Translations under genes and position numbers: made by a program
The notes under the pieces: model-generated
What the model was told of the DNA's origin: nothing
The model's input: only the letters and a program-made list of their open reading frames with translations
Database searches by the model: none
Shown: in pieces, positions 1-35,226 of the stretch
Layout: every line of letters begins with the position of its first letter
How positions within the stretch are numbered: position 1 is the first letter of the stretch
NCBI GenBank assembly: GCA_012514595.1
Contig: JAAYZZ010000084.1
Span: 1 to 35,226, forward strand
Reading direction: 5' to 3'
Source: Elusimicrobiota bacterium
GTDB lineage: Bacteria; Omnitrophota; Gorgyraeia; Zapsychrales; Fredricksoniimonadaceae
DNA: 35,226 bases

Positions 1-1
1 G

Positions 2-3000
2 ATCAAGCCCCACGGTCATGCGTCCGCGGGTCCTATCGGGCGAGGCCTCCCAAAGAAAGGATGCGATCCGGATGAGCTGACCGCGCTTGACATCGGCGGA
101 GGCCCTGATCGCCGGAATGATGTCCGCGTGGAGCAGGGCCCCGCTCTTTTTATCGACAGTCGCGGTGAGAAGGACCACCTCATCGACGGGAAGACCCAAT
201 CTCTCGCACAGGACCGGATGGTCCAGCCCCTCGGCCGATCCCGTGGCGCTGCGCAGCCCCCAGGCCAGATCGATCCTGTCCTCCGGGCCCGAAAACCGCG
301 CGATCGCGACCAGCTCGTCATGTCCGGCATCCGGTCTGGACCGGGTAGAGAATTTCTGAAGGGCCACGGCAAAGGAGGCCCCCCTCACAACGTCGAACGC
401 AGGATCAAGGACCTCCCGGGGCGAGTCGAGAGACAAGACCTCCGAATGCCTCCCGAAACGACTGCGCGCACAAACAGGCGGATCAAAAGAGACCGCCCCC
501 TTGGTCCTGTATGCGGCCAATAGGGGATCAAAACAGTGCCCACACTTTTCCGGAAAACATTCATCGGGACAACAATCAAAGAAACGGTCATAGGCCATGA
601 GGGCGAGCCTCGAACGATCAGAGGTATCCGCGATCCGGATCACGACACGCTGCCCGGTCCACGCCCCGACGGAGAGAACATCCATGACCGATGTCGCGCT
701 CCCGCCCTGTTTTTCGGGACCCGACAACGTGACCAGGCCCCAAAGATCCAGGATCTCGGAGATCGACAGGGAAAGACGCGCGAACGCGCTCGCCGGACGC
801 GCATGAAGACCGTGATCCCAGGACACCACAAAAGACTGCTCGAGCACATCGGATCCTTGTCCAGAAGAACGGACCGAATGGGCGTGCGAGGACCGCAGAA
901 GGGCCAGGACCTGCGCCAGACGGGAGGCCTCCTCGCGGCCATAGGCCCTGTTATCGGACTCGAACGCGATCACCGACGGAAGGCACGCGCTGGTCAACAG
1001 GTTGATCGGAATGATGATCTTTTGATCGATCACGCACGCCGCCAGGAATTCATGCCGCGAGACCGCCCACAGGACCGGAAACTCGTGCGCCGCAAGATCC
1101 CCCGCCGGCATAAAAACAAAGACATCCGGCACGTTCAAAAGGGCCTTGCGGTTCTGCTCGGACAAACGGGTCAGAATGATCGCCGAAAGTTCCGCCGCCG
1201 GGATCAGGACCCCCTCGGAAAGGACCGCACGCGTCCTCCGCTCCGCATCAGGGCTCATCTTCCCGTCCGCGTAAACCCCTTCACCGCAGCCATACGCAGG
1301 CTTCGCGTTATCCTCCGAAGAAGAGCTCGGCGGGATCGTCGACAGACCGGCCGCAGGCGCCTGAGGCCTCTCCGTCACCTCGAGCCCCTGGGTATAAAAA
1401 CGGGCCAAGGCCCCCCGGGCAGTCCGGGCCTTTGCATATTCTGTCAGATGCGTCAGGATCTCGTGACGGATCTCCTGATCGGTCTCTTCGCACTGAAAAT
1501 ACGTGCGCTCCAGGAAAGAAACAGCGCCCGCCTTGTGCAAGACGGACTGCAGACCGATCCAGATATCCTTCCAGGGGATCCTCATCTCCTCGCTCATCTT
1601 TCTAAAGACATCCAGCTCCCTCGCCTGGGTCACGCAGCACCCAAACGCGATCATGGCCACCTCAAAAGTGCCGTCGGTGCGCCAGACCACGAAGTCCTCC
1701 AATGTCAGCTGGACCGGGAAGAGGCGCATTTCGCTCAAGTGATCAAAGGCCACCATCATCCTTTGAACGCTCCATCCCTGTTCATACCCGAGCAGCCTCT
1801 CGAGGATCATGCGCACATTCTCAGGCATTCTCTCAAGATCGATCTTGCGCAGCTCCCTTTCAAGGCCCAGCCGATCAAAGGTCCTCACCTTGCGGTCCAG
1901 ATCGCAGACCAGCGCGATCGCTTCATAGGCGGCCTCTTGCGGCATATAAAAACGGACGAGGGCCCTGACCAGTCTTTGACGAATATACGCCGCATCCTCC
2001 GGGCTGATCGGGGCCTCCTGAAAAGAACGGGTCATCAGGACCTCGGACACGCTGGGATTATGCCCCAGCTTGCGGATCTTCATGCCGCAATAAGCCCCCT
2101 CGCTGATCTCCCGGTAGAACAGCCGCCGGGATATCGGGCCTCGCAGGTAATATGCATTCATCTCGTCGAGCTGCTGGACCTGACGGAACGCCGTTCTGGC
2201 AAGAGACAGGGCCATGGCCGGGATCTCAACCCCGGAGAGACGGATCAGGGCCGCGATCTCCTTGATGACCGCGATACGGATATGATTGGACCCCGCATAA
2301 CACACAGGCGCCCGGATCGTGGTCCGCGGCGACAGGTCCATGATGTCCTCATTCAGCTCGCCATAATCCGTCTCCTCCTCGAGGTCCCGAACGTGCTTGG
2401 CGATATCCAGAGAGAAATCAGGCCGCACGCGAAATACGTCGCGGCAAACATCCTCCACATATTTCCTCATCCTCTCCGCCGGCCCTGTGCCATGACAGAC
2501 CTTTGTCCACGTCACGATATCATTCCGCATGATCTGCAGATTGCGGATAAAGCCCCGGGCCATGCTCATATCCACCTCGTGCCAAGGGATAATCTTTCCC
2601 AGATCAAAAGAACACACGGATCCGGAAAAGGTGTCATACCCATAATTCTCCGTCTTGACGTCCCAATCGACAATGCCGCGGGCGATCATCGAGCGAACGG
2701 CGAGAAAGAACTGCGCGATCAGGAATTCCGCGGTACCAAAAGCCCCGTCTTCGATCGCGTCCGCCAGAATCCCCCGGAACCGGCGGGCCTTCAGCTTCTC
2801 GTCGTACATCGCTTCCTTCAGGACCTCGGGGACATACTTCTGCACCACCGCCCTGGGAATGACCATCTCGTGGACCGTTCCGTCGCCCTCCCGGATATTC
2901 ACCGCAAGAGAAGAAATGATCCGGTAACCTATGACCTTGCGTCCGAGACTTTCCTGGCCCAACCGGTACCCGGAGATCGGACCTTCAGGGGACGGCATCG

Positions 3001-6000
3001 CGATCACATCGCGGTATTTCTCGCAGACATCCTTGAGGATCACAGGATGAGAATTGTCCTCGTTGATGTAGACCGCGGCATCGCTTCCGCCGGAGAAATC
3101 ACGGAAGACCTCCCCTTTCAAGGATTGACGGAACGCCTGTTCAAAGGCCTGGTCCACCTGCTGGATCGACAGGCCATGTTTTTTGAGGACTGTCTCAAGG
3201 TCCTCAAGACGGAGGTCCTTCCAAAGCCCCGCGATCGCGGCGGCCAATCGATCAACAGGATCAGAAAAGCCCTGTTCCAATCCATACCCCTCACGATAAA
3301 AGGCAAAATGGAACTCCAGGACATTCTTCCGCGTTTCCACGCTGACCTTAAAGAGATCCCGGCCTTCCAGCATTTTTCTCGAAAGAACCCGAACACAGAC
3401 GATCTCGTTATGATCGATCCCGAAATCAGAGGCGAACGCGGGATCCCGAAGGGCGCCCCTGATATGCGCCTCGATACCGGGCGTGACCTCTCCGTTGAAC
3501 GAGGGGGCCACGGCAAAAGAATAGGTCCCGCGGCCTGGCGCCTCGGGCATCATGGCACGGTCCAAAAGACCCCCGAAGGCACCGGCCCTCGCCCCGTTCA
3601 CTCGCGCCACCAGGGTACGGCCTTTGGCATCACGATATCTCCCCCGCAGGCGCCAAAGCTCCCCATTTGCGCGGGTGAGGGCCAAATTCTCCTTGTGGGT
3701 CATCTCCACAAGAGCGGCCTGCATCTCATGGGCGATATCTTGAAGCGGGGCATCGGCAGGAAGAAGAACGGCAACGTTCCCGTCGGAAAGAAGGGCGTTC
3801 ACCGCGCGCAGGCGCCATTCCGGCGGGGCATGATAGAAGGTGACCCTGCGCCGGAGCAGAAGTTGCCAGAACGCGTTGTGCCCCATTCCCAGGACCCGCG
3901 AGGCCATCGTCGCGGCCCGGAGGATGCGACGATCAGAAAGAGGAACGGCGATCCTCCTCCCTTCAGAGAAGACCGCCTCCACACCCCCCAGACGCGCGAT
4001 CTCGCTATTGACGATCTCCGCGCCCTCTCCGCCGGCGGCCGGGTCCCGGCCGAGGGGCTGCGGGACGAAGAAGCGATCCCCCCGGGAACTCTCGACGAGG
4101 ATCTTCCCGTCCGCCAGGACCGATACCAGGGGACCGGTTATTTTATCCCGTGTGCGGAAGCCTTCCTCTTTCGGCGGAACCTGCCAGGGCGTCAGGCAAT
4201 CGCGGTCCCCTTCAAAGGCGAGTCTGAGCCGGGACAACGCCTCGGCCCCGGACCCCCCCGGGACGATATTATGCGCGGCGTTGATGGTGACGGACAAGGA
4301 TCCGTGATCAAATGACCCAAAGGCCTGTCGACGGGCCAGATCGGCGGCCTTGGCCCTGTCCTCCTCGTTGATCCCTGCATAACGGAGAGCCCGTTCAAAC
4401 GCCAGACAGATCGCCTCATTGAAGAGCGGCTGACCATCGACATGGGAGACATAAACAACATCAAGACAGTCCTTAAGGGTCTGAATGATATTCCCGTATC
4501 GACGGGCATAGGTCTCGACCCTCTCCTCGCTCACGCGACCATTCCTGAAAATATCGCCGATGACGTCATAGCGGGTATGGAACAGATGGAAGGACAAAAG
4601 CGCCGACCCCGGGGCCCCAGCGGCGACCAGGGCGTTCAGCCGTTCGGCGGCGGCCTGGGCGCGCGCGTCATCCGGTTCCCATCCCCGGGTGGTGAAGCCG
4701 AACCTCCGTCCGGGCTTCTGGCGATGGGCCCATTCGACGATCCCATCGATCCCGACCCCGAAAAAGGGGTCCGACCAGTTCAGGGGATCATTGGACTCCC
4801 AGCCCCGGAAAACATGCCGGTCCGAAGCCAGGATTTTTCCGATGACGACCGGCAGCGGATAGTTGCGCTCCCGGCCGGAGCGATTGCCCTGGATGCAGTG
4901 ATGACAGGCCCAGCGGCATCCCTCGCCCAGCGTATCGGAATCCAGCGACAGGCCATCCAGATCGAACCACCGGAACCAGTTCTGCTCGCCATGGCTCTCG
5001 AGATCAATGTGCTGCGGGTCGGGCATGCGTTCCGCCAGGGCCGCGGCCCGTGCCATCTCCTTTTCCGTCGCCGCGCCGGCCTCGATCTTCTCGAGGAGGC
5101 CCCGGACCTCCAAGGACACTTCGCGGCCATGGGAACTCAGGATATCCTCATAAGCCCTGAACATCCTGTCCATGCGTTCCATCTCCTCCCTCCCCGGGAT
5201 GAAGGAGATCAAACGCACACCGGCCAGATCGCCCAGGGTCACAGGCCGCTGTTTATCCAGATCCTCAAAAAGGCCGCAATATTCAAAGGCCTGGACGATG
5301 AAGACATGATCCAAGACCAGCTTCGGCGAGAATCCGATCAGGACCAGCTTCCGGGCGATGCGGATATACTGATCGTGAAGGGTCTGCGGATCATATTTCT
5401 CCAGAGAGAAGCGGGGACCCACATAGGGCACCAGGGTCAACTGCCCGGTCACGACCACATTCCCCTTGAACGTCCCCGGTCTCCAGGACGGCGAACGGAC
5501 CAGGTCATGCCCCCCCATATCGGTGGGCGATATGGCCCCGAAACGAAAGGCCTTCGCTTCGTCCCGGACCACGAACACGCAACTGGCCTTCTCGGCCCGT
5601 CTCATCCTTTGACGTACCACATCAAGCGGGACCGAGAGATGATCGAGAAAAACAACGCCCTCACGCAGAACGGTCACCGACAGGGAGCTGGCCATGGAGC
5701 GCCAACGGTCGATCCCTCGCTGCAGGATCGCCCTTCCGATGAGGAAAAGAACGGGGACCAGAAGCCCGATCATCCAACTTCTCAGCATGACCGCTGCCAG
5801 AATGCCCGCAGCAAAGACCGTGAATTCCAGGATCGAGAAGACGACGGGAACAAAGGCCGGGCCCTGCTCCTCGACCGTCCTGCCCTTTGCGGTCATGGCA
5901 ACGAACGCCATGGCCGCCAGCGGCAGGTCCACAACAAAAAAGATCATCAGGAACGCCTTGATGAAATCCCCGGCATACGAAAAGACCAGGGTCTCCCGCC

Positions 6001-27000: not shown

Positions 27001-30000
27001 ACGACATGGCGGCGCGCCCTTCCGCGTCCTTGTAGAACGCCAGTCCGTCGGGGTTTGTCGTATCGTTCCCCACAACGCGAGGCTTCTCGCGGGCCACAAG
27101 GATGCGTCCCGCGGCATCGGTCTTGATGAGACAATTGTTGCGCATCGCGTGGTCGGCAAGGGACAGCATCTCATCCGTGATGTGTTCCCGGACCCCGCAG
27201 GTCACCAGGCCTTCAGCGCGCCCGTCGAAAAGCGTGGCATTTGTCGACAACAGCATCTGATCATTGGCGCGCAGGATCCAGCCCGGCTCGGCAAGACGGA
27301 ACTGGCAGCTCTCAAGGATCGTGCGGGCCATGTAGGACACAAGGCCGGGATTGACAATCAGGTGCTTGCCGCCCAACCCCAGCGCATGCGTGAAGGGTTC
27401 ATTACGCGTCCCGCGGCCGGCCAGCTGAATATGAAGCACGCGGGCCGTGTCTTTGTTCAGGCCCAAACGGGGCAGGGCCTGTTCGATCGCGATGTGGATC
27501 TCGGCCACCGAGGCATTGAGATTGTCCTTGAAGACGCCGCTCGGATTGATGACAAGAATGACCGGAAGGTCTGCCGGGTAGGCGACACCCCGAAGCGCCT
27601 GGATCGCCTGGCGGTTCACATCCAGCATCCACTCTTCCGTATCAAAGACCAGCGCGTCGAACTGGGCGCCGCCCTGCATGAAGACCGTAAAGTTCTCCCA
27701 CATCCGGCGCGCCGCGGCCAGACGGATCTTCAACGTAGAGGATGTGGATGGATCATTCTCCATCCTCGCGAAATAATCCCCATGTCTGCGGGTGATCGGT
27801 CTGGGGGCCTGGAACCCTTCGGGCTTCCTCAGGATCTCATAACGGTTCGGGTAGTCTGCGACCACCTCGGCCTGCCTGCCCCTGACGCGGTCCGCGATCA
27901 TCCGCGTGAACCCGAGCTCCCGGCCCAGGCGCACCGCCATCTGACGCTTGGTCACGAGGGTCCGCGTTCTGGCCTTGAGCCTGGCCTCTTCATCCTTCTG
28001 TTCTTGAGGGTTCAACACCAGGGCGTTCAGGGCCGTCATGAACCGTTGCAGAAGATCCTCATGGGCCAAAAGGGTCCGGGGATCCTCAGGCGCGACATGA
28101 TTGATCGCCGTTCGGGCCGTCTTGGAAAATTCTGCCGCGGCCGGGATCTTGTCCCTTTCGGACTCAAAGACGGCCAAGAGCATCCTGAACAGGATCTCGA
28201 ACTTGAGGCCCGCGCTGAGGACATCATTTCCCTTGACCGCATCGATCGTCCGTTGCGTATCCGTGAGATCGTCGTGCCCAACAGGCTTGTTCGTATCTCC
28301 GTATCCCTGCGGATGGCTCCGGTGCCACTTCCAGGCATCTACGATCGAATCGCGGGTGCTCTTCACCGGGGCCCACCCTGTCACCTGCTGGAACCGGCCC
28401 CCCTTCTCGGCGGTCAAGACATCGGGGTCGCCCTGACGCTTGTTCTCGACTGAGATCCGAGACGCCGCGTCCGGGATATCCGAGGAGACGACCTCGACCA
28501 CAAGATCTCGGATCTCCTTGGCCGACTTGGGATCGCTGGTCCCAAGGTTAAAGGAATCGCTGACGCCGCCCCCCAGAAGATAAACAAAGGCGCGATAATG
28601 CGCATCCGCCAGGTCTCGGCCATCGATATAATCGCGGACCGTTGTTCCGTCGGCCGTCTGGGCACGTTCCCCGGGGATCGTGTCGCCCGTGATGCGGTCC
28701 TTCACGCTCCCGTCGAGATGAATGCTCTTTCCGTTCGCGAGGGTCTTGAGGAACCAGGCGATCAGATGGGTCTCGGGATCGTGGTCCTCTCCCTTCACTC
28801 CCTCGTCAAAGGCGCCCGCGACGTTGAAGTACCGCAGACACACGGAGCGGATCCCCTTGCGGGCCGCATACTCCCTCAGGATCAGCTCCACTTCATATTT
28901 GTTCTCGCCATAAGGATGTATCGGCCGCAGCGGGAAACTCTCATTGATCCCCTGCCCTTCCGCCAGGACCGGTTCCCCATAGACGGCGCAGGAAGAGGAG
29001 AAAATGTAATACGGACACCCGAACTCGACCATCACGTCGAGAAGATTGAGCGAATTGGCGATGTTGTTCACGTAATACTGCGACGGCATGTTCAGGGAAT
29101 CCGGCACAACGATATAGAACGCGGTATGGACGACCACATCAGGCCTGTAGGCATGGAACGTCCGGCGCAGGGCCTCTTTGTCGGCGAGGTCCCCCTCGAC
29201 AAAGACCGCCTCGCCGGGAACCGCGGCACGGTGCCCCCCGGAGAGATTGTCGAAGACGACCACCCGGCAGCCTTGTGCCAGGAAATAATGAGAAAGGAAG
29301 GTCCCGACATATCCGGCCCCGCCCACGATCAGGACGGTCTTCCGGGCAAAATGAAGGACCTGGGCCAACTGCGAGGCCATGTCCCGCTTGACAGGATCTC
29401 TCAGCGCCGAGAACGCGGCCTCATATTTTTCCGCAAGGTCGCGGTCCGCCAGGGCCGCGGCCTCATATTCTCCCAGCTGACGCGTATCCAGGAGGGTCCG
29501 GCCCGCCCGGGCAAAGGCCATGGCCTTGTCTGCTGTGGCCGGCTCGGATTCGAACACGTTCACCAGGAACCGGAACAGGATCTCGAACTGAAGGTCCTTG
29601 GAAAGATATTCGTGAGAAGTCACCGCCTCAATCGTGTTCTTCGTGTCCTGGACCTCGGTCGGCGGAACAGGGACTTCCTCATCCCCGTAGCCGGTGAGAT
29701 GTGTCTTCTGGAACATCCACGCGTGACGCAGCGAATCGAGGAAATTGGTCTCGGCCCTCCAACCCGTCGCCTGCTGGAGCCGGGCGCTCGAGGCGATCAA
29801 GCGGGCCGGGTCCCCGCGCCGGGCGTTCTCGACCCTCAGACGCTCCTCGATCTCGGGGAACTCGTCTTTGAGGACCGTCTTGACCCCCTGGGCGATCTGC
29901 TTCGAGGAGTACCCGTCCGCGGTCCCGCAGTTGAACGGTCCCTGCAGGCCCTTCACGAACGCGGCCTCGTGAGCCTTGGCGAGATCCGTGGCGTCGATGT

Positions 30001-33000
30001 AATCCCGGATCGGGGTCCCGTCGGGAGTGTCCACCTGGATCGGCGGGATCGTCTCTCCCGTCACCGGGTTCTTGGTCGATCCGTCAAGCAACAGGCCCAT
30101 CACCGCCGCACGGCCCGAAAGCTCGCGGAGAAGGTCCAAACCCGCCTTCTGATCGGCCAGGACCTCTTCGGCCTTTTTCCCTCGGATCACATCCTTCAAA
30201 GTCCGACGGAGCGTCCCGTAGATCCGGATCAGTCCGCCCATCCCGATGTAGGGACGCGCCGTCCCCTCGGCCGGGACCGCAGGAACCACGTTCTTCTCTA
30301 ATAAGTCCCTCAACGACCTCTCCTGCGCCAGGCTCAGCACGGCCCCTGCGGTCTGACGCGCGATGAGGTCCCGGACGATCAGCTCGATCAAGGGCAGCTG
30401 CATCAGAAGCGGCACCAGATGCGTCTCGGGACTGTGGTCCTCCCCGATCGATCCATCGGCCGCAGACCCGAACACGTTGAAGTACCGCAGGAAGGTCGTC
30501 TTCACGCCGGTCTTCTTCGTATACGCGGTCAGGATCTCCTCGGTCAGGAACTTGCTATCGCCGTAGGTCTGGATCGGATTATTCGGCGTCTTCTCGGTGA
30601 TCACCGCATCCTCGGGCTGGCCATATGTCGCCGCACTCGAGGAGAAGATGAACTGCGCGACCTTACGGGTCGTCGACGCATTCGCGTTGTGCTCGCTGAT
30701 CGCATCCAGAAGACCCAACAGCCGCGCGATGTTGTTGTCATAGTACTTGCCGGGAAGGCTCACCGACTCCGACACCAAAGAGTGCGCGGCGAAGAAATAC
30801 ACGGCCTCAGGCTGATACGTCCTTAAAACCTCCTCGAGCCTGGAACGGTCCGCCACATCGGCAGAGATGAAATCCGCCCCCTTCACAACAGCCTTCGGAT
30901 GTCCCTTGATGCAGCTGTCGTACACGACCACCCGATATCCGTTCTCCGTCAGATGCTTGACCGTGTGGCTCCCCACATACCCCGCTCCTCCGATCACAAG
31001 GACGGAACGTGATCCGGGGACTTCTGCGGGTTGTTTCTCTTGACCCTCCCCGTTAAAATCAATGACCTGACGGAAAATATGAACACGGTTGGGGGCGTCC
31101 TTTCCGCCGATCTCCTCTCCCCTGTGGCGCAGAATATCGATCTGGATCCGCACCCCGGAACGGATGCTCTCATCTTCCGGCGAGAGCGCCGTGATCGTCC
31201 CCGGTTCCGAGGTCTTCTGATAATCGGCGAGGAGCGCCGGCATGGAGGGAACCTTGCTCTCAATCGTAACATGGACCGGGAGCCGTAAGATCTGGGACAT
31301 CGCCTCAGGTCCCCACCCGTTCCAATAGTCGCGCGTGAAGGTCTCCCGAAGCTTGAGCGGGTTGAAAGGCTTTCCGTTGTGAAGAATGACCAGGCGGATC
31401 CCGCGGTCGAAGGCATAAAGCTCGATGCCCAGGCTTCCCGGCTGACGGTCGCCGTCCGCCACGCGCCGACGGATCGCGTCAAAGGACCGATACACCCAGA
31501 ACTCGATCACATCCGAGAAGATCCTCTGCAATCTCCTGTGCGGACTGATCTCTGCGACGGCCTCCGGGAGGGCGCGGGAATGGAAATCGGAAGACCAATG
31601 CAGGAACTGCTCCTCTAGCGGGATCCCGAACAGCCCTTCGGACAGACGCTCCTTGAGGAACCAGTCCTCTCCCTGCAGATCGATGAAGGCATGGACATCT
31701 TTCTCGGTCCGCTCGTCATACGCCTCAAAACTGGGCACCAGGGACAATCCATAAAAGACCATCTGGATATCCGCCTCGGCCGGATCCTTGTACCCGCGGG
31801 TGCGGTCCTCGAACCGGACCGCGGTCCTGTTCTTGTCGTCGTGAAGGCGATACCGGAGATCCGCGAAATCCTTGAGCGCTTCAATGTTGGTATATTTTCC
31901 CTCGAAGATATAAACGACACCCTTCTCGAAGACGATCGGGATGTCCCGGCGCTCCATCTGACCGCGGATGTACGCATTGCGCACCACATAGTCCTCACGC
32001 TCACGGCCGGAGACACGGAAGGCCTGAAGATGCCGGAGAAGGTCCACGGCCCCGTCGAAATCAAAGAACCCTTCCTCCCCCAGATACGGCTCACCGGACC
32101 GGAGAGTGGTCACAAGGTCCCCGAGCAACGCCCTCTCCTCATCGGTCAGGACCAGTTCGCCGCTCGCCGGGTCATGGGCCACGACCTTCTGGACGGCCTC
32201 GCGCCAATGGCGGTCCCGAAGATACCAGTCCAGTTCCAGGATCTTCACGCGCACCTGGCTCTGGGACAGGACCTTCTCGATCAGTCTCGCGATCACGGTC
32301 TTTCCGGACCCGGACCCTCCGTCGATAGAGACGACCGGCACATTTCCCGGGACCCCGCGGGCCAGGCGTTCTCGGATATGACGCACCATGGGGATCACGA
32401 ACGGCTCCATCCTCGCCTGCAGATATTCAAAGGAACTCGCGAACAGGGGCCTCCCGGTCACGGGATCGATCGGCGGATGATTGTAGTACCCGTGCGCCCT
32501 GGCGAACTCGTGGGCCGCCAGCGGGATCACCGCCTGGTCCTGTCCATAACGATACCTCGTCGAGGAAAGACCCAGATCGATCTGCGAATGCTGCAAAAGT
32601 CCCATGGCAAGACGCTTCGCCCCCCCGTAAAGCGCCATGGCATGTTCGTTGTACTGATCCATCATGGCCTGGCTCATGGCAGCCCCGAACTTCCCGCGCT
32701 GGATCCAGTAAATGCTGATCCGGTGCCGCGGGTCCATCCGTCCCTCATAATCCTTGAAGAACGTATAGAACTGACGGCAGTAATTCACGACCCGCTGTTC
32801 GCTCTCGATCCCGAGAAGGTACACAAAATGCATGCGCCGGCCGCGATTGTCCTCCATCAGACGGATCATGGAGGCGAACCCTTCATCCTCATTATCCGGC
32901 TCGCTGGAAAGGTCCGTGTACCGGACCAGAGGATTGAGGACCGCGATCGCCAGGCGGGACATCATGTGCCGATGTTCCGTCGAGACCTTCTCCGAACGAT

Positions 33001-35224
33001 AAACCTTCTTGTACGCGATCTTCCCCTGCACGCGGATGACCGCCATATCGAGCTTGAGGAGCGCGACCGCAAAGAGCGGCGGGATCAGATGCCCGTGATT
33101 CGGGGGATTCCCTGTGATGGGAAGGAACCCGACCTGGACCTCTCGTTCGGGGGCCGCATCATGAAGGGCCACAGGACCGTCATCCTCGATCGAATGCTTC
33201 AGAAGATTCATGCGCAAAAGCGGATCGCTTTCCCCCCGACGGACATTCTCCGCGATCATGCCCAGGCACCTCTGGTAGGCCCGGAGGATCCGGCCGTTCA
33301 GGAACCGGTCGCTGCGCTGTTTGACCAGGGGATCGGCCGCGATCTGCTGGGCCTCGATCTCGCGCCAGACCTCCTCCACGGCTTCCGAGGCGCTGATATG
33401 CCGGGTCGCGGGGTCCTCTCCTCGACGGGCCCTGAGCCAGTCGCGCAGCACGGCCTCCCGCGAGGCGTTCTCCTCCTCGGTCAGATCGAACTCCGGCCCG
33501 TGGGTCCGAAGCGCGCGGATCTCATGGCCAAGGCTCAGGGCGATCTCAAGGAAGGTGGCATAGGCAGGATAGGAGGTGCTGACCAGAATATGCTCCTGGC
33601 CGTCACGCTCAACGGTCGTGGCCAGGAATCCCTGGAGCGGCGCGCCCTTCAGGAGCCCCGTGCGTCCCATCCAGCGCAGTTTCGCGGCCGCCTGGCCGTC
33701 CCCGGTCTCCTCGAGCCCGCGGGCCATCAGCTCCCACATCTCCCGGGGGATCTCCGTGACCTTGGCCCAATCCAGTCGGGCGAGACCTCTCCTGACGATC
33801 TCCTCCGGGGAAAGGCGCCGAAGGTCCGGCGACAGGATCAAGGAGGGGATCGGCCGGGCCGGATCCTTCTTCGAAGAGCGTGGCGTCTTCACCCGTGCGA
33901 TCCCCAAAAGGATCCTGCGCAATCCGCCATCGGTCACCTGGGAAAGAGGAAGAACCGGCGGCGGGAACATCGGATGAAGGTGGATAAAGACCCGGGTCCT
34001 TGAGAAGATCTCCTGGGCCGCTCCGACCAGCTCATCGAGAACGTCACCTTCCTCGACCTGAACTTCCCGGGCCTCCCGATCGCCCGTGTATTCAAAACCG
34101 ATCTTAACGTCAATATCCGAAGGGAGATCCCAAGAGGCCGCAGAGGAATCGGCCGCATACTTGCGCACCAGTGCGCCCATAAAGGCCTCGAACGTCCACG
34201 GCTCCGGAACGGTCCCGATCTCGGCATGGCCCTGGGCGATCCCGTCCGCGATCCCGACGATCAACGGCCGTACGAGCCCCTCACGCCGCGCGATCTCCCG
34301 AACGCGCTCCAATAAAAGATCGAACGCCTCCTGGTATCGGGAACTCAAGGCCCCGAGGTTCAAGGCTGAAGCATCATTCTCCCGGACCGGATCCTCCGGG
34401 ATCTTATCGGGGTGTGTCACCACGACCATGGTCGTGGTGGGCGTCATGTCCGCCCGTTTTCTCAAGACAACGCCGGGAATGCCCTCTCCCCGGGCATCCA
34501 CGAAGACGATCTCGCCCCCTCGTGTCCGGATGTCGGCGGCCTGGGTCACGACGCGGATCAAGGTCTCCCCGTACTTCGCGCGGTCCTTGAAGTTCGAGAT
34601 GAATTCCTCGTTCTCGTCGACCATGCGGGCGAAGACCGTATCAGGGCCGAAGACAGGATCAAAGCCCGCGCGCAGCAACAGCACATAGCCCTTCACAAAG
34701 GCCCGGAGATCCCCGCTCTTCCGGGCCGGGATCAAAAGCACGAAGTAGAGATAGAACCATTCGCCCATGCGTCCGAAATTCTTTTGGAAGAACTCCAGGT
34801 CTGCAGGCCTGATCTCTCCGGAGGAGACCAGATCGGCGACCGCGCGGTCAAAATCCGCCAGGTACGACCCATCGGTCCGCGCCGGATCAAGCCATGCCCC
34901 CATGATCCGTGCGAGCCTGCGGCGGGCACCAGGACCCGCCTCCTCACGGAAGGCCCGCTCCGCGGCCTCCCTGTTCGTCGTCCCCTCGACAGAACGACGC
35001 ATCAGGTCCGCCACAAAGATCAGATATTCAAGCGCATTCGCATGACTCAGGCCCTCGCCGTTCCCCGCTGCATCTACCGTCCAGAAAAGGATCGTGTCTC
35101 CCAAGAATTCGTCAAGACGGTTCGGGTCGATCGCTCCGGCGGGCGCGAGATGGGCCGCGACATCCGTATCATCAAAAAGCTCAAAGGCGCTGGTCAAAGG
35201 ACGCGAGGCCGCGGCATGCCCCGG
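2..35224 (-). CDS. Single giant open reading frame, partial at both ends (11,741 codons in-window); multi-domain mosaic protein with several transmembrane clusters
   Basis: The minus frame with codons on + triplets starting at 2,5,8... shows no in-frame TAA/TAG/TGA (that is, no + strand TTA/CTA/TCA in that register) on my manual reading of the whole window. None of the ~55 minus-strand ORFs in the track is in this frame: their end coordinates are all 0 or 2 mod 3, never 1. That is what is expected if the frame never closes in-window and a start-to-stop caller cannot emit it. All long + ORFs share one frame (start = 2 mod 3), the exact antisense register. More than 15 textbook catalytic motifs, from nt 33.1k down to 0.5k, all fall in this same frame. 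Confidence 0.9.
533..574 (-). other. Motif: Cys-rich cluster CCX3CX4CX2C directly after the HPr domain
   Basis: FFDCCPDECFPEKCGHCFDP, with Cys codons (aca on the + strand) at 572-574, 569-571, 557-559, 542-544 and 533-535. Confidence 0.35.
590..841 (-). other. Domain: HPr (PTS phosphocarrier) fold
   Basis: EQSFVVSWDHGLHARPASAFARLSLSI...GGSATSVMDVLSVGAWTGQRVVIRIADTSDRSRLALMAYDRFF. The GLHARPA signature (His15 context) lies at 791-811, and SATSVMDVLSVG matches the Ser46 region (KSIMGVMSLG) of Gram-positive-type HPr. The length is about 85 aa. Confidence 0.8.
2400..3100 (-). other. Domain: protein-kinase-like fold (atypical; RIO/Kdo/ABC1-like)
   Basis: FSGGSDAAVYINEDNSHPVILKDV (Gly-rich loop plus the VxxK lysine, 3026-3097), HEMVIPRAVVQKYVPE (hinge-like), GIVDWDVKTENYGYD (catalytic-loop-like, 2645-2668) and VCSFDLGK (DFG-like, 2594-2608). 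Confidence 0.5.
4260..4960 (-). other. Domain (tentative): radical SAM-like
   Basis: GEGCRWACHHCIQG is a CX3CX2C motif (Cys codons at 4916-4918, 4904-4906 and 4895-4897). About 35 aa later comes RGWESNDPLNW (GGEP-like), then FGFTTRGWEP and LLSFHLFH at positions expected for the TIM-barrel strands. Confidence 0.45.
5745..6075 (-). other. Transmembrane cluster 5 (about 4 helices)
   Basis: RWIMLLGTASAVAIGVLALWG, FIKAFLMIFFVVDLPLAAMAFVAM, FVPVVFSILEFTVFAAGILAAVML and SWMIGLLVPVLFLIGRAIL. Confidence 0.75.
6155..6409 (-). other. Domain: ParB/sulfiredoxin-like N-terminal domain
   Basis: VRQVSVAYLTDSRHADIVRTP...AIRLDIRAGQKKVLVWDGTHRLSALNRIGESSVAAHIVW, with the DGxHR core at 6221-6235. Confidence 0.5.
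7208..7610 (-). other. Domain: HD metal-dependent phosphohydrolase, HD-GYP-like layout with degenerate GYP
   Basis: HREESARVGDMAGLLAGELG...VDLLRRIGRAHDIGKK (HD at 7496-7501)...LHAELT...VLRHHSYYLGFRP (HHExxDGxGYP position)...LIVSDHLIARYADRGYK (DxxDAxxSxRxYK position). Confidence 0.7.
7690..7990 (-). other. Transmembrane cluster 4 (3-4 helices)
   Basis: AVLLKAVFTLGGILAAGLGLGYGLL, SAVLAVGIFGTAYYLLGRLF and TFLIGALEGATVLVMLLMAPVIAVLAFWV, followed by RIRGIRKGHR. Confidence 0.7.
8150..8880 (-). other. Domain: HAD-superfamily phosphatase, subfamily IIB (Cof / sugar-phosphate phosphatase type)
   Basis: Motif I VISDFDGVMRD (DxD at 8858-8866), motif II LVQITGRP, a cap-sized insert, and motif IV VLILGDSLGTRLRPGNDRSML (GDS at 8246-8254, ND at 8216-8221). 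Confidence 0.7.
16679..16768 (-). other. Motif: Cys4 zinc-ribbon-like (CX4C ... CX2C)
   Basis: CREVRC (16751-16768) ... 20 aa ... CPWC (16679-16690). This is a pattern only, and no family is assigned. Confidence 0.25.
16955..17030 (-). other. Transmembrane helix 3 (single)
   Basis: STLVGMPLLILGLPVVLLFIFWPLL, immediately followed by the basic stretch RRVWELFKMRRYRRGRRVAR. Confidence 0.6.
17150..18020 (-). other. Domain: calcineurin-like metallophosphoesterase (PPP / ApaH / PrpA-type Ser/Thr phosphatase)
   Basis: All signature blocks occur in order: GDLHGDF (18002-18019), LIFLGDYIDRRPRG, FLMGNHEF (GNHE at 17822-17833), LLNGGG, LYLHAGIP and IVTGHTPF (GHT at 17195-17203). Confidence 0.75.
18200..18349 (-). 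other. Motif: HExxH zinc-metallopeptidase-like (SprT/DUF45-like context)
   Basis: VRRKTIAVNMNMALRAPPLMIDAILLHEILHVIFPRSSEGQIW, with HEILH at 18257-18271. The context resembles YgjP/SprT-type minimal metallopeptidases. Confidence 0.35.
19448..21223 (-). other. Domain: GT-B fold alpha-glucan phosphorylase / glycogen-synthase-like (GT35/GT5-like), divergent
   Basis: RRLYLVSPEITLLSGGLGRVMQYLGRALKKMGLEVVFIEPRY (21167-21223; compare the SxE...YSGGLG...G-L-P-xxGxGLLY N-terminus of glucan phosphorylases). Also ALNDGQS (NEGH position), MVTTHTYRNRIF (TTHTP position), VNAVSDAHAGDV (NGVSxLH), IYGLTNGD (ITNGV), FFIILGNEQP (FAGKAHP) and GTGAAESTEAH (EASGTSxMK position, not conserved). Confidence 0.5.
21908..22048 (-). 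other. Transmembrane cluster 2 (1-2 helices)
   Basis: NVIAVALGTLLFLGLGGILIAVLFHFF, then MPGVSMAAMFPFFV. Confidence 0.6.
23045..24055 (-). other. Domain: DHH/DHHA2-family phosphoesterase (family II pyrophosphatase / exopolyphosphatase-like)
   Basis: IVVFADHFDIDAFVSTLS (motifs I-II, 24008-24049), VKLVQVDSSG (motif III position, non-canonical), WLTIDHHKE (DHH at 23729-23737), GASAAFMISQEY, LYSMMSDTLNFT and MLNDIKYDY (DHHA2-like). Confidence 0.65.
24724..25055 (-). other. Transmembrane cluster 1 (about 4 hydrophobic helices)
   Basis: FLFLWLGGTALLAGLHIFWGLAGLLSGLFILLAIPLFV, YIFAVAFSVLVFLGGFLVFCSLTGL and VAWGFVVVGTVGAFS. The cluster is followed by a strongly basic stretch, ARRAARGRSS...KPSKRSRRKGR. 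Confidence 0.7.
26309..27568 (-). other. Domain: sugar-phosphate nucleotidyltransferase-like (NTP_transferase / pyrophosphorylase type) plus C-terminal extension
   Basis: LPVILVINP...HIQLAGRGTRNEPFTHALGLGGKHLIV (AGxGTR signature at 27386-27427) and ...KTDAAGRILVAREKP (EKP at 27080-27088). The layout resembles GlgC/ManC/RmlA-type enzymes. The C-terminal ~200 aa are unassigned. Confidence 0.5.
28298..29341 (-). other. Domain: UDP-glucose 4-epimerase (GalE)-like NAD-dependent epimerase, copy 2
   Basis: KTVLIVGGAGYVGTFLSHYF (29300-29341), YYVNNI, YIFSSSCAVYGEP, YGENKYEVELIL (YxxxK), CLRYFNVAGA, GEDHDPETHL, VRDYIDGRDLADAH and a C-terminal DAWKWHRSHPQGYG (compare E. coli GalE ...WHWQSRHPQGY). Its 348 aa is the canonical GalE length. 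Confidence 0.85.
29684..31003 (-). other. Domain: UDP-glucose 4-epimerase (GalE)-like NAD-dependent epimerase, copy 1, with a large internal insertion
   Basis: SVLVIGGAGYVGSHTVKHL (GxxGxxG at 30977-30994), YYDNNI, FIFSSSAATYGQP, YGDSKFLTEEIL (YxxxK), FLRYFNVFG, GEDHSPETHL, PIRDYIDATDLAKAH and a C-terminal HAWMFQKTHLTGYG. The domain is collinear with E. coli GalE end to end but about 440 aa long. The extra sequence lies roughly at 30035-30397. Confidence 0.85.
31118..31516 (-). other. Domain (tentative): GHKL/anti-sigma-kinase-like ATPase fold, degenerate
   Basis: SDVIEFWVYRSFDAIRRRVADGDRQPGSLGIELYAFDRGIRLVILHNGKPFNP...WNGWGPEAMSQILRLPVHVTIES loosely follows the N-box / G1 / G2 layout of RsbW/SpoIIAB-type domains. 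The canonical Asn is not evident. Confidence 0.2.
31673..32340 (-). other. Domain: P-loop kinase of the uridine kinase / phosphoribulokinase / nicotinamide-riboside-kinase type
   Basis: Walker A VVSIDGGSGSGKTVIARLIEKV (GGSGSGKT at 32297-32320), then KILELDWYLRD, VVYIFEGKYT and RYRLHDDKNRTAVRFEDRTRG. This pattern is typical of the PRK/Udk family. Confidence 0.65.
32546..33139 (-). other. Domain: NadD/NMNAT-like nucleotidyltransferase (cytidylyltransferase fold)
   Basis: VQVGFLPITGNPPNHGHLIPPL carries the HxGH motif (H-G-H codons at 33089-33097). It is followed by ...EHRHMMSRLAI... and a C-terminal LGLSSTRYRY (ISSTxxR-like motif, 32546-32566). Motif order and spacing match nicotinate/nicotinamide mononucleotide adenylyltransferases. 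Confidence 0.6.
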
Positions 35225-35226
35225 GA

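What the first reader, a model, noticed from the sequence alone, without database searches (positions are those of the whole stretch)
1..35226. One uninterrupted minus-strand reading frame spans the entire window: a fragment of a giant (>11,700 aa) gene absent from the ORF track
In the sequence, the minus frame aligned to + triplets 2,5,8... has no stop codon across 11,741 codons. The other two minus frames close so often that their longest ORF is 173 aa. The track lists no minus ORF in this frame at all, which only makes sense if the frame has no stop for the caller to anchor on. Recognisable catalytic motifs (GalE x2, HPr, PPP phosphatase, HAD, HD, DHH, Walker A, HxGH) all sit in this one frame, spread over 32 kb with no frameshift. 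Both ends are open, so the true gene is longer. From memory, bacterial genes of this size are very rare. The known ones are mostly repeat adhesins or NRPS/PKS, and a recently described class of giant multi-TM ORFs comes from metagenomic genomes such as Omnitrophota. This one is non-repetitive and is not an NRPS/PKS.
Basis: partly seen in the sequence, partly recalled or inferred. Interest (0 to 1): 0.95.

Follow-up and report, generated by a model that had tools for sequence, protein, structure and literature searches.

The report
Fragment of a giant multi-enzyme gene
The whole 35-kb window lies inside one real bacterial gene of more than 11,700 codons, a membrane-threaded string of sugar- and phosphate-handling enzymes of the giant-gene type already described in Omnitrophota, so it is a striking new example of a known oddity rather than a new kind of thing.

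Summary
The minus frame running from 35224 to 2 has 0 stops in 11,741 codons, where 240-375 are expected, and both ends are open. The coding signal is uniform and GC is homogeneous. There are no DNA tandem repeats and no RNA genes. The long plus-strand ORFs are antisense shadows: their 32 stops equal the sense TTA, CTA and TCA codons, and they have no Pfam hits.

The protein is a mosaic of enzyme modules and dark sequence:
- **Significant hits:** GalE x2, a starch-synthase-type GT5 domain, a PPP phosphatase and HPr.
- **Sub-threshold hits or motifs only:** P-loop kinase, HxGH, DHH, HAD, HD and radical SAM.
- **Membrane:** about 13 hydrophobic helices in five clusters.
- **Orphan sequence:** aa 7201-8400 has no homologue among 1.84 billion representative proteins.

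The only homologous long ORFs I found are two wholly open contigs of Candidatus Omnitrophota MAGs. They share modules at 30-56% identity, in a different order. Two modules also exist elsewhere as stand-alone genes, one of them on an archaeal contig.

Verdict: this is a real fragment of an Omnitrophota-type "multi-enzyme / Archaeovorin-like" giant gene, a class described in 2023-2026 papers. It is a new member of a known kind. Its function, total length and host are still inferred.

The parts
2..35224 (-). One uninterrupted reading frame, 11,741 codons, open at both ends (aa i starts at window 35224-3(i-1))
   Evidence: 0 stops, 242-376 expected; uniform GC3 of about 0.74
33521..33889 (-). Internal repeat copy a (aa 446-568), function unknown
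   Evidence: 32% identity to aa 7057-7174, E 1.4e-6
31634..33379 (-). Conserved module aa 616-1197: HxGH (aa 709-712) and SSTRYR (aa 887-892) nucleotidyltransferase-type motifs, then a uridine-kinase-like P-loop (GGSGSGKT, aa 969-976)
   Evidence: 42% identity to L004 aa 2299-2871; only weak PRK/uridine-kinase hits. Motif positions
29354..31009 (-). GalE copy 1 (aa 1406-1957), with an insertion of about 100 aa (aa ~1613-1710) and a helical tail
   Evidence: 51-56% identity to the GalE modules of L003 and L004, which align across the insertion
28289..29341 (-). GalE copy 2 (aa 1962-2312), without the insertion
   Evidence: Epimerase E 3e-67. TIGR01179 galE 426.9 bits against a cut-off of 262.3; 40% identity to copy 1
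26192..28279 (-). Conserved P0001-like module (aa 2316-3011), function unknown; LAGRGTRNEPF and VAREKP motifs resemble sugar-1-P nucleotidyltransferases
   Evidence: 43-50% identity to the stand-alone archaeal P0001 and to L003/L004. No Pfam or PDB match
25142..25771 (-). Conserved module aa 3152-3361, function unknown
   Evidence: 30% identity to L004 aa 2059-2273, E 2e-25. No PDB hit
24713..25054 (-). TM cluster 1 (aa 3391-3504, 3-4 helices)
   Evidence: Kyte-Doolittle hydropathy
23711..24049 (-). DHH-phosphoesterase-like region (aa 3726-3838; DHFDID and DHH motifs)
   Evidence: DHH E 0.12. Mn-dependent pyrophosphatase E 0.003. Motifs. All sub-threshold
21905..22048 (-). TM cluster 2 (aa 4393-4440, 1-2 helices), directly before the GT5 module
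18524..21931 (-). Module of about 1,130 aa (aa 4432-5567) containing the PF08323 starch-synthase-type GT5 domain (aa 4673-4936)
   Evidence: E 2e-11; 31-37% identity over about 1,150 aa to stand-alone proteins of about 1,670 aa that carry a signal peptide (P0002-P0009), and 48% to a partial 'Candidatus Omnitrophica' protein
17195..18022 (-). PPP-family metallophosphatase (aa 5735-6010; GDLHGD, GDYIDR, GNHE); the only HExxH in the protein (aa 5652-5656) lies just upstream at 18257-18271
   Evidence: Metallophos E 1e-9. PP2A catalytic subunit chains. Motifs
16955..17023 (-). Single TM helix (aa 6068-6090), followed by 7 K/R in the next 15 residues
13703..14056 (-). Internal repeat copy b (aa 7057-7174)
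10025..13624 (-). Orphan stretch (aa 7201-8400), predicted almost entirely alpha-helical
   Evidence: 0 hits at E<=1e-3 among 1.84 billion representative proteins; low-confidence AF2 model (pLDDT 40.6), nearly all helix
8246..8884 (-). HAD-phosphatase-like region (aa 8781-8993; DFDG and GDSLG...GND motifs)
   Evidence: Hydrolase E 0.0037, sub-threshold. Motifs
7685..7990 (-). TM cluster 4 (aa 9079-9180, about 3 helices)
7481..7594 (-). HD-domain-like region (aa 9211-9248; AHDIGK)
   Evidence: HD E 0.01, sub-threshold. Motif
5723..6058 (-). TM cluster 5 (aa 9723-9834, about 4 helices)
4514..4927 (-). Radical-SAM-like region (aa 10100-10237; CRWACHHC = CxxxCxxC)
   Evidence: Radical_SAM E 0.0064, sub-threshold. 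Motif
623..841 (-). HPr phosphocarrier domain (aa 11462-11534), with the GLHARPA active-site histidine motif
   Evidence: PTS-HPr E 8.8e-7, 29.3 bits against a cut-off of 23. Motif

Best explanation
The window is an internal piece of one genuine protein-coding gene on the minus strand. It holds at least 11,741 codons, and the true start and stop lie outside the window. The gene belongs to the giant ORFs typical of Omnitrophota, specifically the non-repetitive 'multi-enzyme' (Archaeovorin-like) type. SHOWN: The polypeptide is a mosaic. Whole enzyme-sized modules sit between long stretches with no detectable relatives, and about 13 hydrophobic helices fall in five clusters. The clearly supported modules are two GalE epimerases, a conserved 700-aa module of unknown function, a 1,130-aa GT5 starch-synthase-type module, a PPP phosphatase and HPr. 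P-loop kinase, DHH, HAD, HD and radical-SAM-like regions are weaker. At least two modules also exist elsewhere as ordinary stand-alone genes. Related Omnitrophota giant ORFs carry the same modules in a different order. So the gene looks as if it was built by fusing and shuffling once-separate genes. INFERRED mechanism (about 35% confidence): it is translated as one multi-pass inner-membrane polypeptide that tethers enzymes of nucleotide-sugar and phosphoryl-transfer chemistry at the envelope. Most cofactor-dependent modules (GalE, kinase, radical SAM, HPr) would face the cytoplasm. The segment aa ~4441-6067 (GT5 module plus PPP phosphatase) would be displayed outside. That segment is bracketed by a TM helix on each side, and its stand-alone relatives carry signal peptides. 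The likely role is building or remodelling surface or host glycans in a small host-associated cell.
For: - **Real coding:** 0 stops against 242-376 expected, with uniform codon-position GC in all 23 blocks. Curated-threshold domain hits occur only in this frame. The plus-strand ORFs have no hits.
- **Single unit, not a chimera:** GC is 57-64% throughout. There are no tandem repeats, tRNAs or Rfam families.
- **Kinship:** profile-derived patterns scanned over 185,579 GTDB species genomes returned two loci, both Candidatus Omnitrophota MAGs. Each is one open frame end to end, of 2,210 and 4,867 codons. They share the GalE-with-insertion module (51-56% identity), the P0001-like module (44-46% by BLASTP; 48-50% in the A2 alignment), aa 616-1197 (42%) and aa 3152-3361 (30%), in a different order.
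- **Match to published classes:** PF08323 is the commonest Pfam in Omnitrophota long proteins; the catalogue has a multi-enzyme class and TM content of about 2% of residues. GT5 is the commonest glycosyltransferase in Archaeovorins. [quoted passage not shown]
- **Fusion of stand-alone genes:** P0001 (680 aa) aligns end to end with aa 2316-3011. P0002-P0009 (about 1,670 aa) align with aa 4432-5567 and sit in ordinary gene neighbourhoods.
- **Catalytic motifs intact** in at least 10 modules.
- **Topology clue:** a TM helix lies directly before the GT5 module, and a single TM helix after the phosphatase is followed by 7 K/R in 15 residues. The stand-alone relatives have N-terminal signal-peptide-like sequences.
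Against: - No marker gene or flanking gene is in the window.
- GC (61%) is far above that of the two Omnitrophota relatives (40% and 48%). Module identity is only 30-56%, so the host phylum is not proven.
- No closer relative was found in GTDB representatives or JGI metagenomes.
- The SecA-DEAD, HEAT, NUDIX, methyltransferase and peptidase domains said to typify Archaeovorins were not detected in this fragment.
- Topology rests on a hydropathy scan and the positive-inside rule, not on a trained predictor. TM clusters 4 and 5 give an ambiguous count.
- A GT5 domain outside the cell would lack nucleotide-sugar donors.
- Both AF2 models were unusable (pLDDT 36 and 41).
- There is no expression evidence for this gene.
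Confidence: 0.8

Rival explanations
1. Polyprotein: the giant ORF is translated once and then cut into separate enzymes, so the giant size is only a way of expressing the gene and not a functional scaffold.
For: The modules match complete stand-alone proteins end to end. West-Roberts et al. raise cleavage by C39/S8 peptidase domains near the N-termini of such genes. One HExxH motif is present at aa 5652.
Against: No peptidase family was detected in the window. There is no recurring junction motif: my eyeballed 'HE' linker idea failed, with 26 HE dipeptides against 21.6 expected, and profile searches found only the a/b pair. TM helices between modules argue for a tethered product. This rival is not exclusive with the main explanation.
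Confidence: 0.15
2. The gene is real, but the host is not Omnitrophota. It is another high-GC lineage (for example another PVC phylum), and it shares modules with Omnitrophota giants through common descent of the modules or horizontal transfer.
For: GC is 61% against 40-48% in L003 and L004. Identity is only 30-56%. Neither of the two own-peptide scans found a close relative in any collection. West-Roberts et al. report proteins of 10,000 aa or more in other PVC phyla. The stand-alone archaeal P0001 is as close to L003/L004 (51-52%) as the window is (48-50%), so modules clearly move between lineages.
Against: The only hits in 185,579 species genomes were Omnitrophota. Four separate modules are shared, including a derived insertion of about 100 aa inside GalE and the GalE-P0001-like adjacency. 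The best GT5-module hit by identity is also labelled Candidatus Omnitrophica.
Confidence: 0.2
3. Artefact: several ordinary genes were fused by assembly or sequencing errors, or the plus-strand ORFs are the real genes and the minus frame is their shadow.
For: Plus frame 1 has only 32 stops and ORFs of up to 1,419 aa. Long-read assemblies are known to carry indels.
Against: Errors break frames; they do not remove every stop over 35 kb. The 32 plus-frame stops are exactly the sense TTA (8), CTA (7) and TCA (17) codons, which is the expected antisense shadow of a GC3-rich gene. The six longest plus ORFs have no Pfam hit, whereas the minus frame has hits down to E 1e-67 and homologues at 30-56% identity. 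Composition is homogeneous.
Confidence: 0.02

Closest known systems
Giant ORFs of Omnitrophota, 'Archaeovorin' type (type sequence: the 39,678-aa, 42-TM protein of Velamenicoccus archaeovorus LiM; West-Roberts et al. 2023, bioRxiv 10.1101/2023.11.21.568195; Seymour et al. 2023, PMC10066038)
   Same: A single non-repetitive ORF longer than 30 kb, with scattered TM helices, very divergent domains and mostly unannotatable sequence. GT5 glycogen-synthase-type domains and sugar-nucleotide enzymes are present.
   Different: No SecA-DEAD, HEAT/TPR, NUDIX, methyltransferase, glycoside hydrolase or C39/S8 peptidase was detected in this fragment. GC is much higher than in the two relatives I could read. 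Length of 30,000 aa or more, the N-terminus and the host are unknown.
Class 1 'multi-enzyme metabolic cluster' long proteins, sugar-metabolism module (Nielsen & Lui 2026, bioRxiv 10.64898/2026.06.07.730766)
   Same: Many different enzyme families tile the chain and none dominates. PF08323, HAD, HD and radical-SAM-type content is present. TM helices make up about 2% of residues. No nucleotide tandem repeats. Sequence is essentially unique.
   Different: Only five families pass curated thresholds here. More than half of the chain is dark. The source is not among the collections I could scan.
Open frames of Candidatus Omnitrophota MAG contigs VGKM01000006.1 (L004) and JBFZAQ010000188.1 (L003)
   Same: They share the GalE-with-insertion module, the P0001-like module, the HxGH + P-loop module and the aa 3152-3361 module at 30-56% identity. 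Both contigs are also open end to end.
   Different: Module order differs: the HxGH + P-loop module lies before GalE here and after it in L004. GalE and its tail are duplicated only here. L003/L004 carry HIT/GalT-like, NUDIX and further kinase modules that are absent from the window (read). Their GC is 40-48%.
Eukaryotic multi-enzyme polypeptides (AROM, CAD, fatty-acid synthase) and viral polyproteins (comparison from general knowledge)
   Same: Formerly separate enzymes of related chemistry are encoded as one chain.
   Different: Those have 5-8 domains of one defined pathway, are soluble or are cleaved, and are well conserved. This one is more than 10 times longer, membrane-threaded, mostly orphan and rapidly rearranged.

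Membership tests
Omnitrophota giant/large ORFs (Seymour 2023: >20 kb; West-Roberts 2023: 'large' >=10,000 aa) | A single uninterrupted ORF longer than 20-30 kb | tested here: met
   11,741 codons (35.2 kb) with no stop
Omnitrophota giant/large ORFs | 'Giant' tier, >=30,000 aa | not testable with these tools
   Both ends are open, and the source contig was not found
Omnitrophota giant/large ORFs | Encoded in an Omnitrophota genome | tested here: inconclusive
   The only homologous long ORFs are in two Omnitrophota MAGs, and one GT5-module hit is labelled Candidatus Omnitrophica. However, identity is 30-56%, GC is 61% against 40-48%, and the window has no marker genes
Omnitrophota giant/large ORFs | Multiple TM helices along the chain (about 2% of residues) | tested here: met
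   about 13 helices in 5 clusters, about 2.2% of residues. This comes from hydropathy only, not DeepTMHMM
Omnitrophota giant/large ORFs | Few annotated domains and poor conservation | tested here: met
   Five families pass their cut-offs. There are 0 homologues for aa 7201-8400 and for aa 9841-11140
Archaeovorin type (West-Roberts 2023) | GT5/GT1 glycosyltransferase domains | tested here: met
   PF08323, E 2e-11
Archaeovorin type (West-Roberts 2023) | Divergent SecA DEAD / preprotein-binding domain (present in most) | tested here: not met
   no SecA family in the 11,741 aa. The gene is incomplete, so the domain may lie outside the window
Archaeovorin type (West-Roberts 2023) | HEAT/TPR repeats, methyltransferase, NUDIX, glycoside hydrolase and peptidase domains | tested here: not met
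   none detected. The helical orphan stretch could hide repeats, but the AF2 model is unusable
Archaeovorin type (West-Roberts 2023) | N-terminal signal peptide with C39/S8 peptidase | not testable with these tools
   The N-terminus lies outside the window
Class 1 multi-enzyme long proteins (Nielsen & Lui 2026) | Many distinct families, none dominant by copy number | tested here: met
   Epimerase x2 and single GT5, Metallophos and HPr, plus single sub-threshold PRK, DHH, HAD, HD and rSAM
Class 1 multi-enzyme long proteins (Nielsen & Lui 2026) | No bulk nucleotide tandem repeats | tested here: met
   one 36-bp array only
NRPS/PKS megasynthases | Condensation, adenylation, KS, AT and carrier-protein domains in repeating modules | tested here: not met
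   none found
Repeat adhesins (RTX, Ig-like, cadherin, TSP3/dockerin giants) | One domain repeated many times, with DNA tandem repeats | tested here: not met
   only two pairwise internal duplications and no repeat-family Pfam hits

The most novel reading that the evidence does not exclude
The giant gene grows by capturing whole stand-alone genes and shuffling them, including exchange with archaeal hosts. The 700-aa P0001-like module is shared by three giant ORFs. Its only detected free-standing copy sits in a sugar-nucleotide gene cluster of a Methanofastidiosia/Theionarchaea-type archaeon, and that copy is as close to the Omnitrophota copies (51-52%) as those are to this window (48-50%). The captured enzymes are kept catalytically competent, while more than half of the chain is fast-evolving, stop-free helical spacer with no relatives among about 15 billion proteins. 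On this reading the window comes from an unsampled high-GC lineage and records inter-domain module traffic at a symbiont-host interface.
Probability: 0.25. Interest if true: 0.6.

Novelty: new member of a known kind. Interest (0 to 1): 0.4.

Why it matters
Giant bacterial ORFs are a recognised but unexplained phenomenon. They take up a sizeable share of very small genomes and are expressed in the one enrichment-cultured case studied, V. archaeovorus LiM, yet nobody knows what they do. This fragment does not change that picture.

It is still a clean example with useful handles:
- Two modules have end-to-end stand-alone counterparts, one secreted and bacterial, one archaeal.
- Its module order can be compared with two related ORFs.
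- One segment has a topology clue that can be tested.
- A 1,200-aa stretch is kept open yet has no relatives at all.

These features make "fusion and shuffling of whole genes" and "tethered versus cleaved" concrete, testable questions.

There is also a practical lesson. ORF callers that need a bounding stop miss such genes and report antisense shadow ORFs instead.

Tried and rejected
- **Finding the source contig or close relatives.** Own-peptide pattern scans of GTDB genomes and JGI metagenomes found nothing. A second metagenome scan with the 4-sequence profile also found nothing.
- **'HE' linker idea.** By eye I thought a "hydrophobic strand + HE" mini-module recurred between enzymes and might mark cleavage sites. 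I reject it. HE occurs 26 times against 21.6 expected, there is a single HExxH, and profile searches recover only the aa 446-568 / 7057-7174 pair.
- **P0001-like module as a sugar-1-P nucleotidyltransferase.** The motifs fit (GRGTRNEPF, VAREKP). But Pfam and PDB profile searches found nothing, and hhalign against a bona fide NTP_transferase gave 1.5% probability. It stays a lead only.
- **aa 616-1197 as NadR-like (NMNAT + kinase).** Only weak P-loop and uridine-kinase hits appeared. The NMNAT half is motif-level only.
- **AlphaFold2.** Both models were too poor to use: the P0001-like module (2-sequence alignment, pLDDT 36.4) and aa 7201-8400 (single sequence, pLDDT 40.6). I therefore ran no fold searches.
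- **Promoter and terminator scans.** Promoter-like sites were at chance. Weak terminator-like matches were slightly above the shuffles in 1-20000 (29 against 17.9 +/- 4.5). None had a real T-run, so this is uninformative.
- **Plus-strand ORFs as genes.** Rejected.
Full report
**1. The observation**

A six-frame count shows that the minus frame whose codons occupy + positions 2-4, 5-7 ... 35222-35224 has no stop in 11,741 codons. The other two minus frames have 326 and 343 stops.

From the frame's own position-specific base composition 242 stops are expected, and from overall composition 376. The probability of zero is therefore about 1e-106 to 1e-166. The pattern GC1 about 0.65, GC2 about 0.43, GC3 about 0.74 holds in every one of 23 consecutive 500-codon blocks. 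GC is 57-64% in every 1.5-kb window. So there is no sign of a non-coding stretch or a chimeric join.

There is one trivial 18-bp two-copy tandem repeat. There are no tRNAs and no Rfam families. The frame is missing from ORF lists only because such lists require a bounding stop codon (stated).

**2. The plus-strand ORFs are shadows**

Plus frame 1 is the in-register antisense frame. It has only 32 stops and ORFs of up to 1,419 aa. Those 32 stops are exactly the sense-strand TTA (8), CTA (7) and TCA (17) codons. These codons are rare in a GC3-rich gene. The six longest plus ORFs have no Pfam hit at E<=0.01. They are not genes.

**3. What the protein contains**

Families that pass curated thresholds:

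| Domain | Position (aa) | Evidence |
|---|---|---|
| GalE copy 1, split by an insertion of about 100 aa | 1406-1612 + ~1711-1850 | |
| GalE copy 2 | 1962-2312 | TIGR01179 426.9 bits against cut-off 262.3; |
| Starch-synthase-type GT5 domain (PF08323) | 4673-4936 | |
| PPP-family metallophosphatase | 5735-6010 | |
| HPr | 11462-11534 | |

Sub-threshold hits that carry the expected catalytic motifs:
- a uridine-kinase-type P-loop at aa 969
- DHH (DHFDID ... DHH)
- HAD (DFDG ... GDSLG/GND)
- HD (AHDIGK)
- radical SAM (CRWACHHC)

HxGH and SSTRYR at aa 709 and 887, and a ParB-like WDGTHR at aa 9663, are motif-level only.

No NRPS/PKS, adhesin-repeat, SecA, HEAT, NUDIX or peptidase family was detected.

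A hydropathy scan finds about 13 TM-like helices in five clusters. They lie at aa 3391-3504, 4393-4440, 6068-6090, 9079-9180 and 9723-9834, and make up about 2.2% of residues.

Internal similarity is limited to two pairs:
- a tandem duplication of GalE plus a helical tail (aa 1406-1941 against 1962-2402, about 40% identity)
- one distant pair (aa 446-568 against 7057-7174, 32% identity, E 1e-6)

**4. Relatives**

Most of the chain has none.
- aa 7201-8400 gave zero hits at E<=1e-3 in an exhaustive phmmer search of 1.84 billion representative proteins.
- aa 9841-11140 gave none in the word-indexed search of 5.8 billion.
- PDB sequence searches of the last 3,941 aa found nothing.

Two segments do have relatives, and both relatives are complete stand-alone proteins.

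*(a) aa 2316-3011.* This segment aligns end to end with P0001 (680 aa), at 41.5% identity by BLAST and 43-45% in alignment. P0001 lies on 41%-GC contigs between a mannose-1-P guanylyltransferase and HIT, HAD and hexapeptide-repeat genes. A neighbouring 927-aa protein shares a 90%-identity cluster with proteins of Candidatus Methanofastidiosia and Theionarchaea MAGs. That contig is therefore archaeal.

*(b) aa 4432-5567.* This segment aligns over about 1,150 aa (31-37% identity) with residues ~430-1580 of a family of proteins of about 1,670 aa. Those proteins begin with signal-peptide-like sequences. Two that I looked up sit in ordinary bacterial neighbourhoods. The best hit by identity (48%) is a partial protein that NCBI labels [quoted passage not shown].

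**5. Related giant ORFs**

I aligned the window with P0001 and used patterns from that alignment to scan one genome for each of 185,579 GTDB species. Exactly two loci came back, and both are Candidatus Omnitrophota MAG contigs. Neither has a bounded ORF of 120 aa or more on the matching strand. Each is one open frame from end to end, of 2,210 and 4,867 codons.

They share several modules with the window:
- the GalE module, 51-56% identity, aligned across the ~100-aa insertion
- the P0001-like module directly after GalE, 44-46% identity by BLASTP (48-50% in the A2 alignment)
- in L004, aa 616-1197 (42% identity) and aa 3152-3361 (30% identity)

The order differs. The HxGH/P-loop module lies upstream of GalE in the window and downstream of it in L004. 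These ORFs are therefore homologous at the level of modules, and the modules have been rearranged. [quoted passage not shown]

No closer relative was found by own-peptide scans of GTDB or JGI metagenomes, and the profile scan of the metagenomes was also empty.

**6. Comparison with the literature**

- Seymour et al. 2023 (PMC10066038) report ORFs longer than 20 kb in most Omnitrophota genomes. These ORFs have few annotated domains and poor conservation. The 39,678-aa, 42-TM ORF of V. archaeovorus has peptide evidence.
- West-Roberts et al. 2023 define "large" (>=10,000 aa) and "giant" (>=30,000 aa) proteins. Their Archaeovorin type is rich in GT5 glycosyltransferases and usually carries divergent SecA domains and N-terminal C39/S8 peptidases.
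- Nielsen & Lui 2026 catalogue 3,650 proteins of 10 kAA or more in their samples. Their class of "multi-enzyme metabolic clusters" has PF08323 as its commonest family, alongside HAD, HD and radical SAM. TM helices are about 2% of residues, and 80% of sequence clusters are singletons.

The window fits this class on every feature I could test. The Archaeovorin-specific SecA, HEAT, NUDIX and peptidase domains are the exception: they are absent from this fragment. The gene is incomplete, so this weakens but does not exclude that sub-type.

**7. How it probably works**

*Shown.* This is one reading frame. It strings together enzyme-sized modules whose catalytic motifs are intact, interspersed with TM helices and orphan sequence. 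The orphan sequence is predicted helical, but only from a low-confidence model. At least two modules are derived from, or ancestral to, stand-alone genes.

*Inferred.* The product is a single multi-pass membrane polypeptide that holds nucleotide-sugar and phosphoryl-transfer enzymes at the envelope. The cofactor-dependent modules (NAD-dependent GalE, ATP-dependent kinase, radical SAM, HPr) make sense only in the cytoplasm. The stretch aa ~4441-6067 is probably outside, for three reasons:
- it is preceded by a TM helix;
- it is followed by a single TM helix and then an R/K-rich segment, 7 K/R in 15 residues;
- its stand-alone relatives look secreted.

I put about 35% on this tethered-scaffold mechanism. 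Cleavage into separate enzymes is the main alternative, and the two are not exclusive. Nothing in the window identifies a protease or a recurring junction.

**8. Verdict**

This is a real fragment, open at both ends, of an Omnitrophota-type multi-enzyme giant gene. It is a new member of a known kind from a lineage with no close representative in the collections searched.

Its interest lies in the handles it offers: stand-alone counterparts of whole modules, including an archaeal one, module shuffling, a testable displayed segment, and a long relative-less stretch that stays stop-free. It is not a new category.

Noticed in passing
window 536-4315, 4442-7984, 11687-14623, 18512-22771, 25007-28453, 31691-34003 (+ strand): Very long plus-strand ORFs (770-1,419 aa) lie in the in-register antisense frame. 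Their 32 stops equal the sense TTA, CTA and TCA codons, and none has a Pfam hit. They are shadow ORFs that a naive caller would report in place of the real gene.
   Followed up: yes
L001 10001-12043 (JGI 3300062816, Ga0599221_0000317); window 26192-28279: The only stand-alone homologue found for the 700-aa conserved module is on an archaeal contig, next to sugar-nucleotide genes. A neighbouring protein clusters at 90% identity with Methanofastidiosia/Theionarchaea MAG proteins. The archaeal copy is as close to the Omnitrophota copies (51-52%) as the window is (48-50%). This suggests inter-domain transfer, direction unknown.
   Followed up: partly
L005 10001-15001 (GCA_054037615.1), L007 9118-14169 (ENA ERZ27262676); window 18524-21931: There is a family of GT5-containing proteins of about 1,670 aa that carry a signal peptide and sit in ordinary bacterial neighbourhoods (menaquinone genes, SOD and RNR; HtrA-like protease). 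It is homologous over about 1,150 aa to one module of the giant ORF. Why a 'starch synthase' domain is apparently exported is unexplained.
   Followed up: partly
window 28024-31009 (aa 1406-2402): GalE plus a helical tail is duplicated in tandem at about 40% identity. Copy 1 has an insertion of about 100 aa (aa ~1613-1710) that the GalE modules of L003 and L004 share and copy 2 lacks. The tail is homologous to the N-terminal ~105 aa of P0001.
   Followed up: partly
window 33521-33889 and 13703-14056 (aa 446-568 and 7057-7174): One distant internal repeat (32% identity, E 1e-6), 6,600 aa apart, of unknown function. No further copies were detectable in the window, L003 or L004.
   Followed up: partly
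window 10025-13624 (aa 7201-8400): This 1,200-aa stretch has a normal coding signature and no stops, yet has zero homologues among 1.84 billion representative proteins. A low-confidence AF2 model predicts it to be almost entirely alpha-helical.
   Followed up: partly
L003 1-6633 and L004 1-14604: Both Omnitrophota MAG contigs are single open frames end to end. L004 carries further modules that are absent from the window (HIT/GalT-like, NUDIX, a second GGKGTR nucleotidyltransferase-like motif, an APH-like kinase, radical SAM). It shows almost no hydrophobic helices by eye.
   Followed up: no
window 1-20000: Weak terminator-like stem-loops are somewhat more frequent than in shuffles (29 against 17.9 +/- 4.5), mostly on the coding strand. 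None has a proper T-run, so this is probably a composition effect.
   Followed up: no
window 6221-6238 (aa 9663-9668): A ParB/sulfiredoxin-like 'WDGTHR' motif lies between TM clusters 4 and 5. There is no Pfam support.
   Followed up: no
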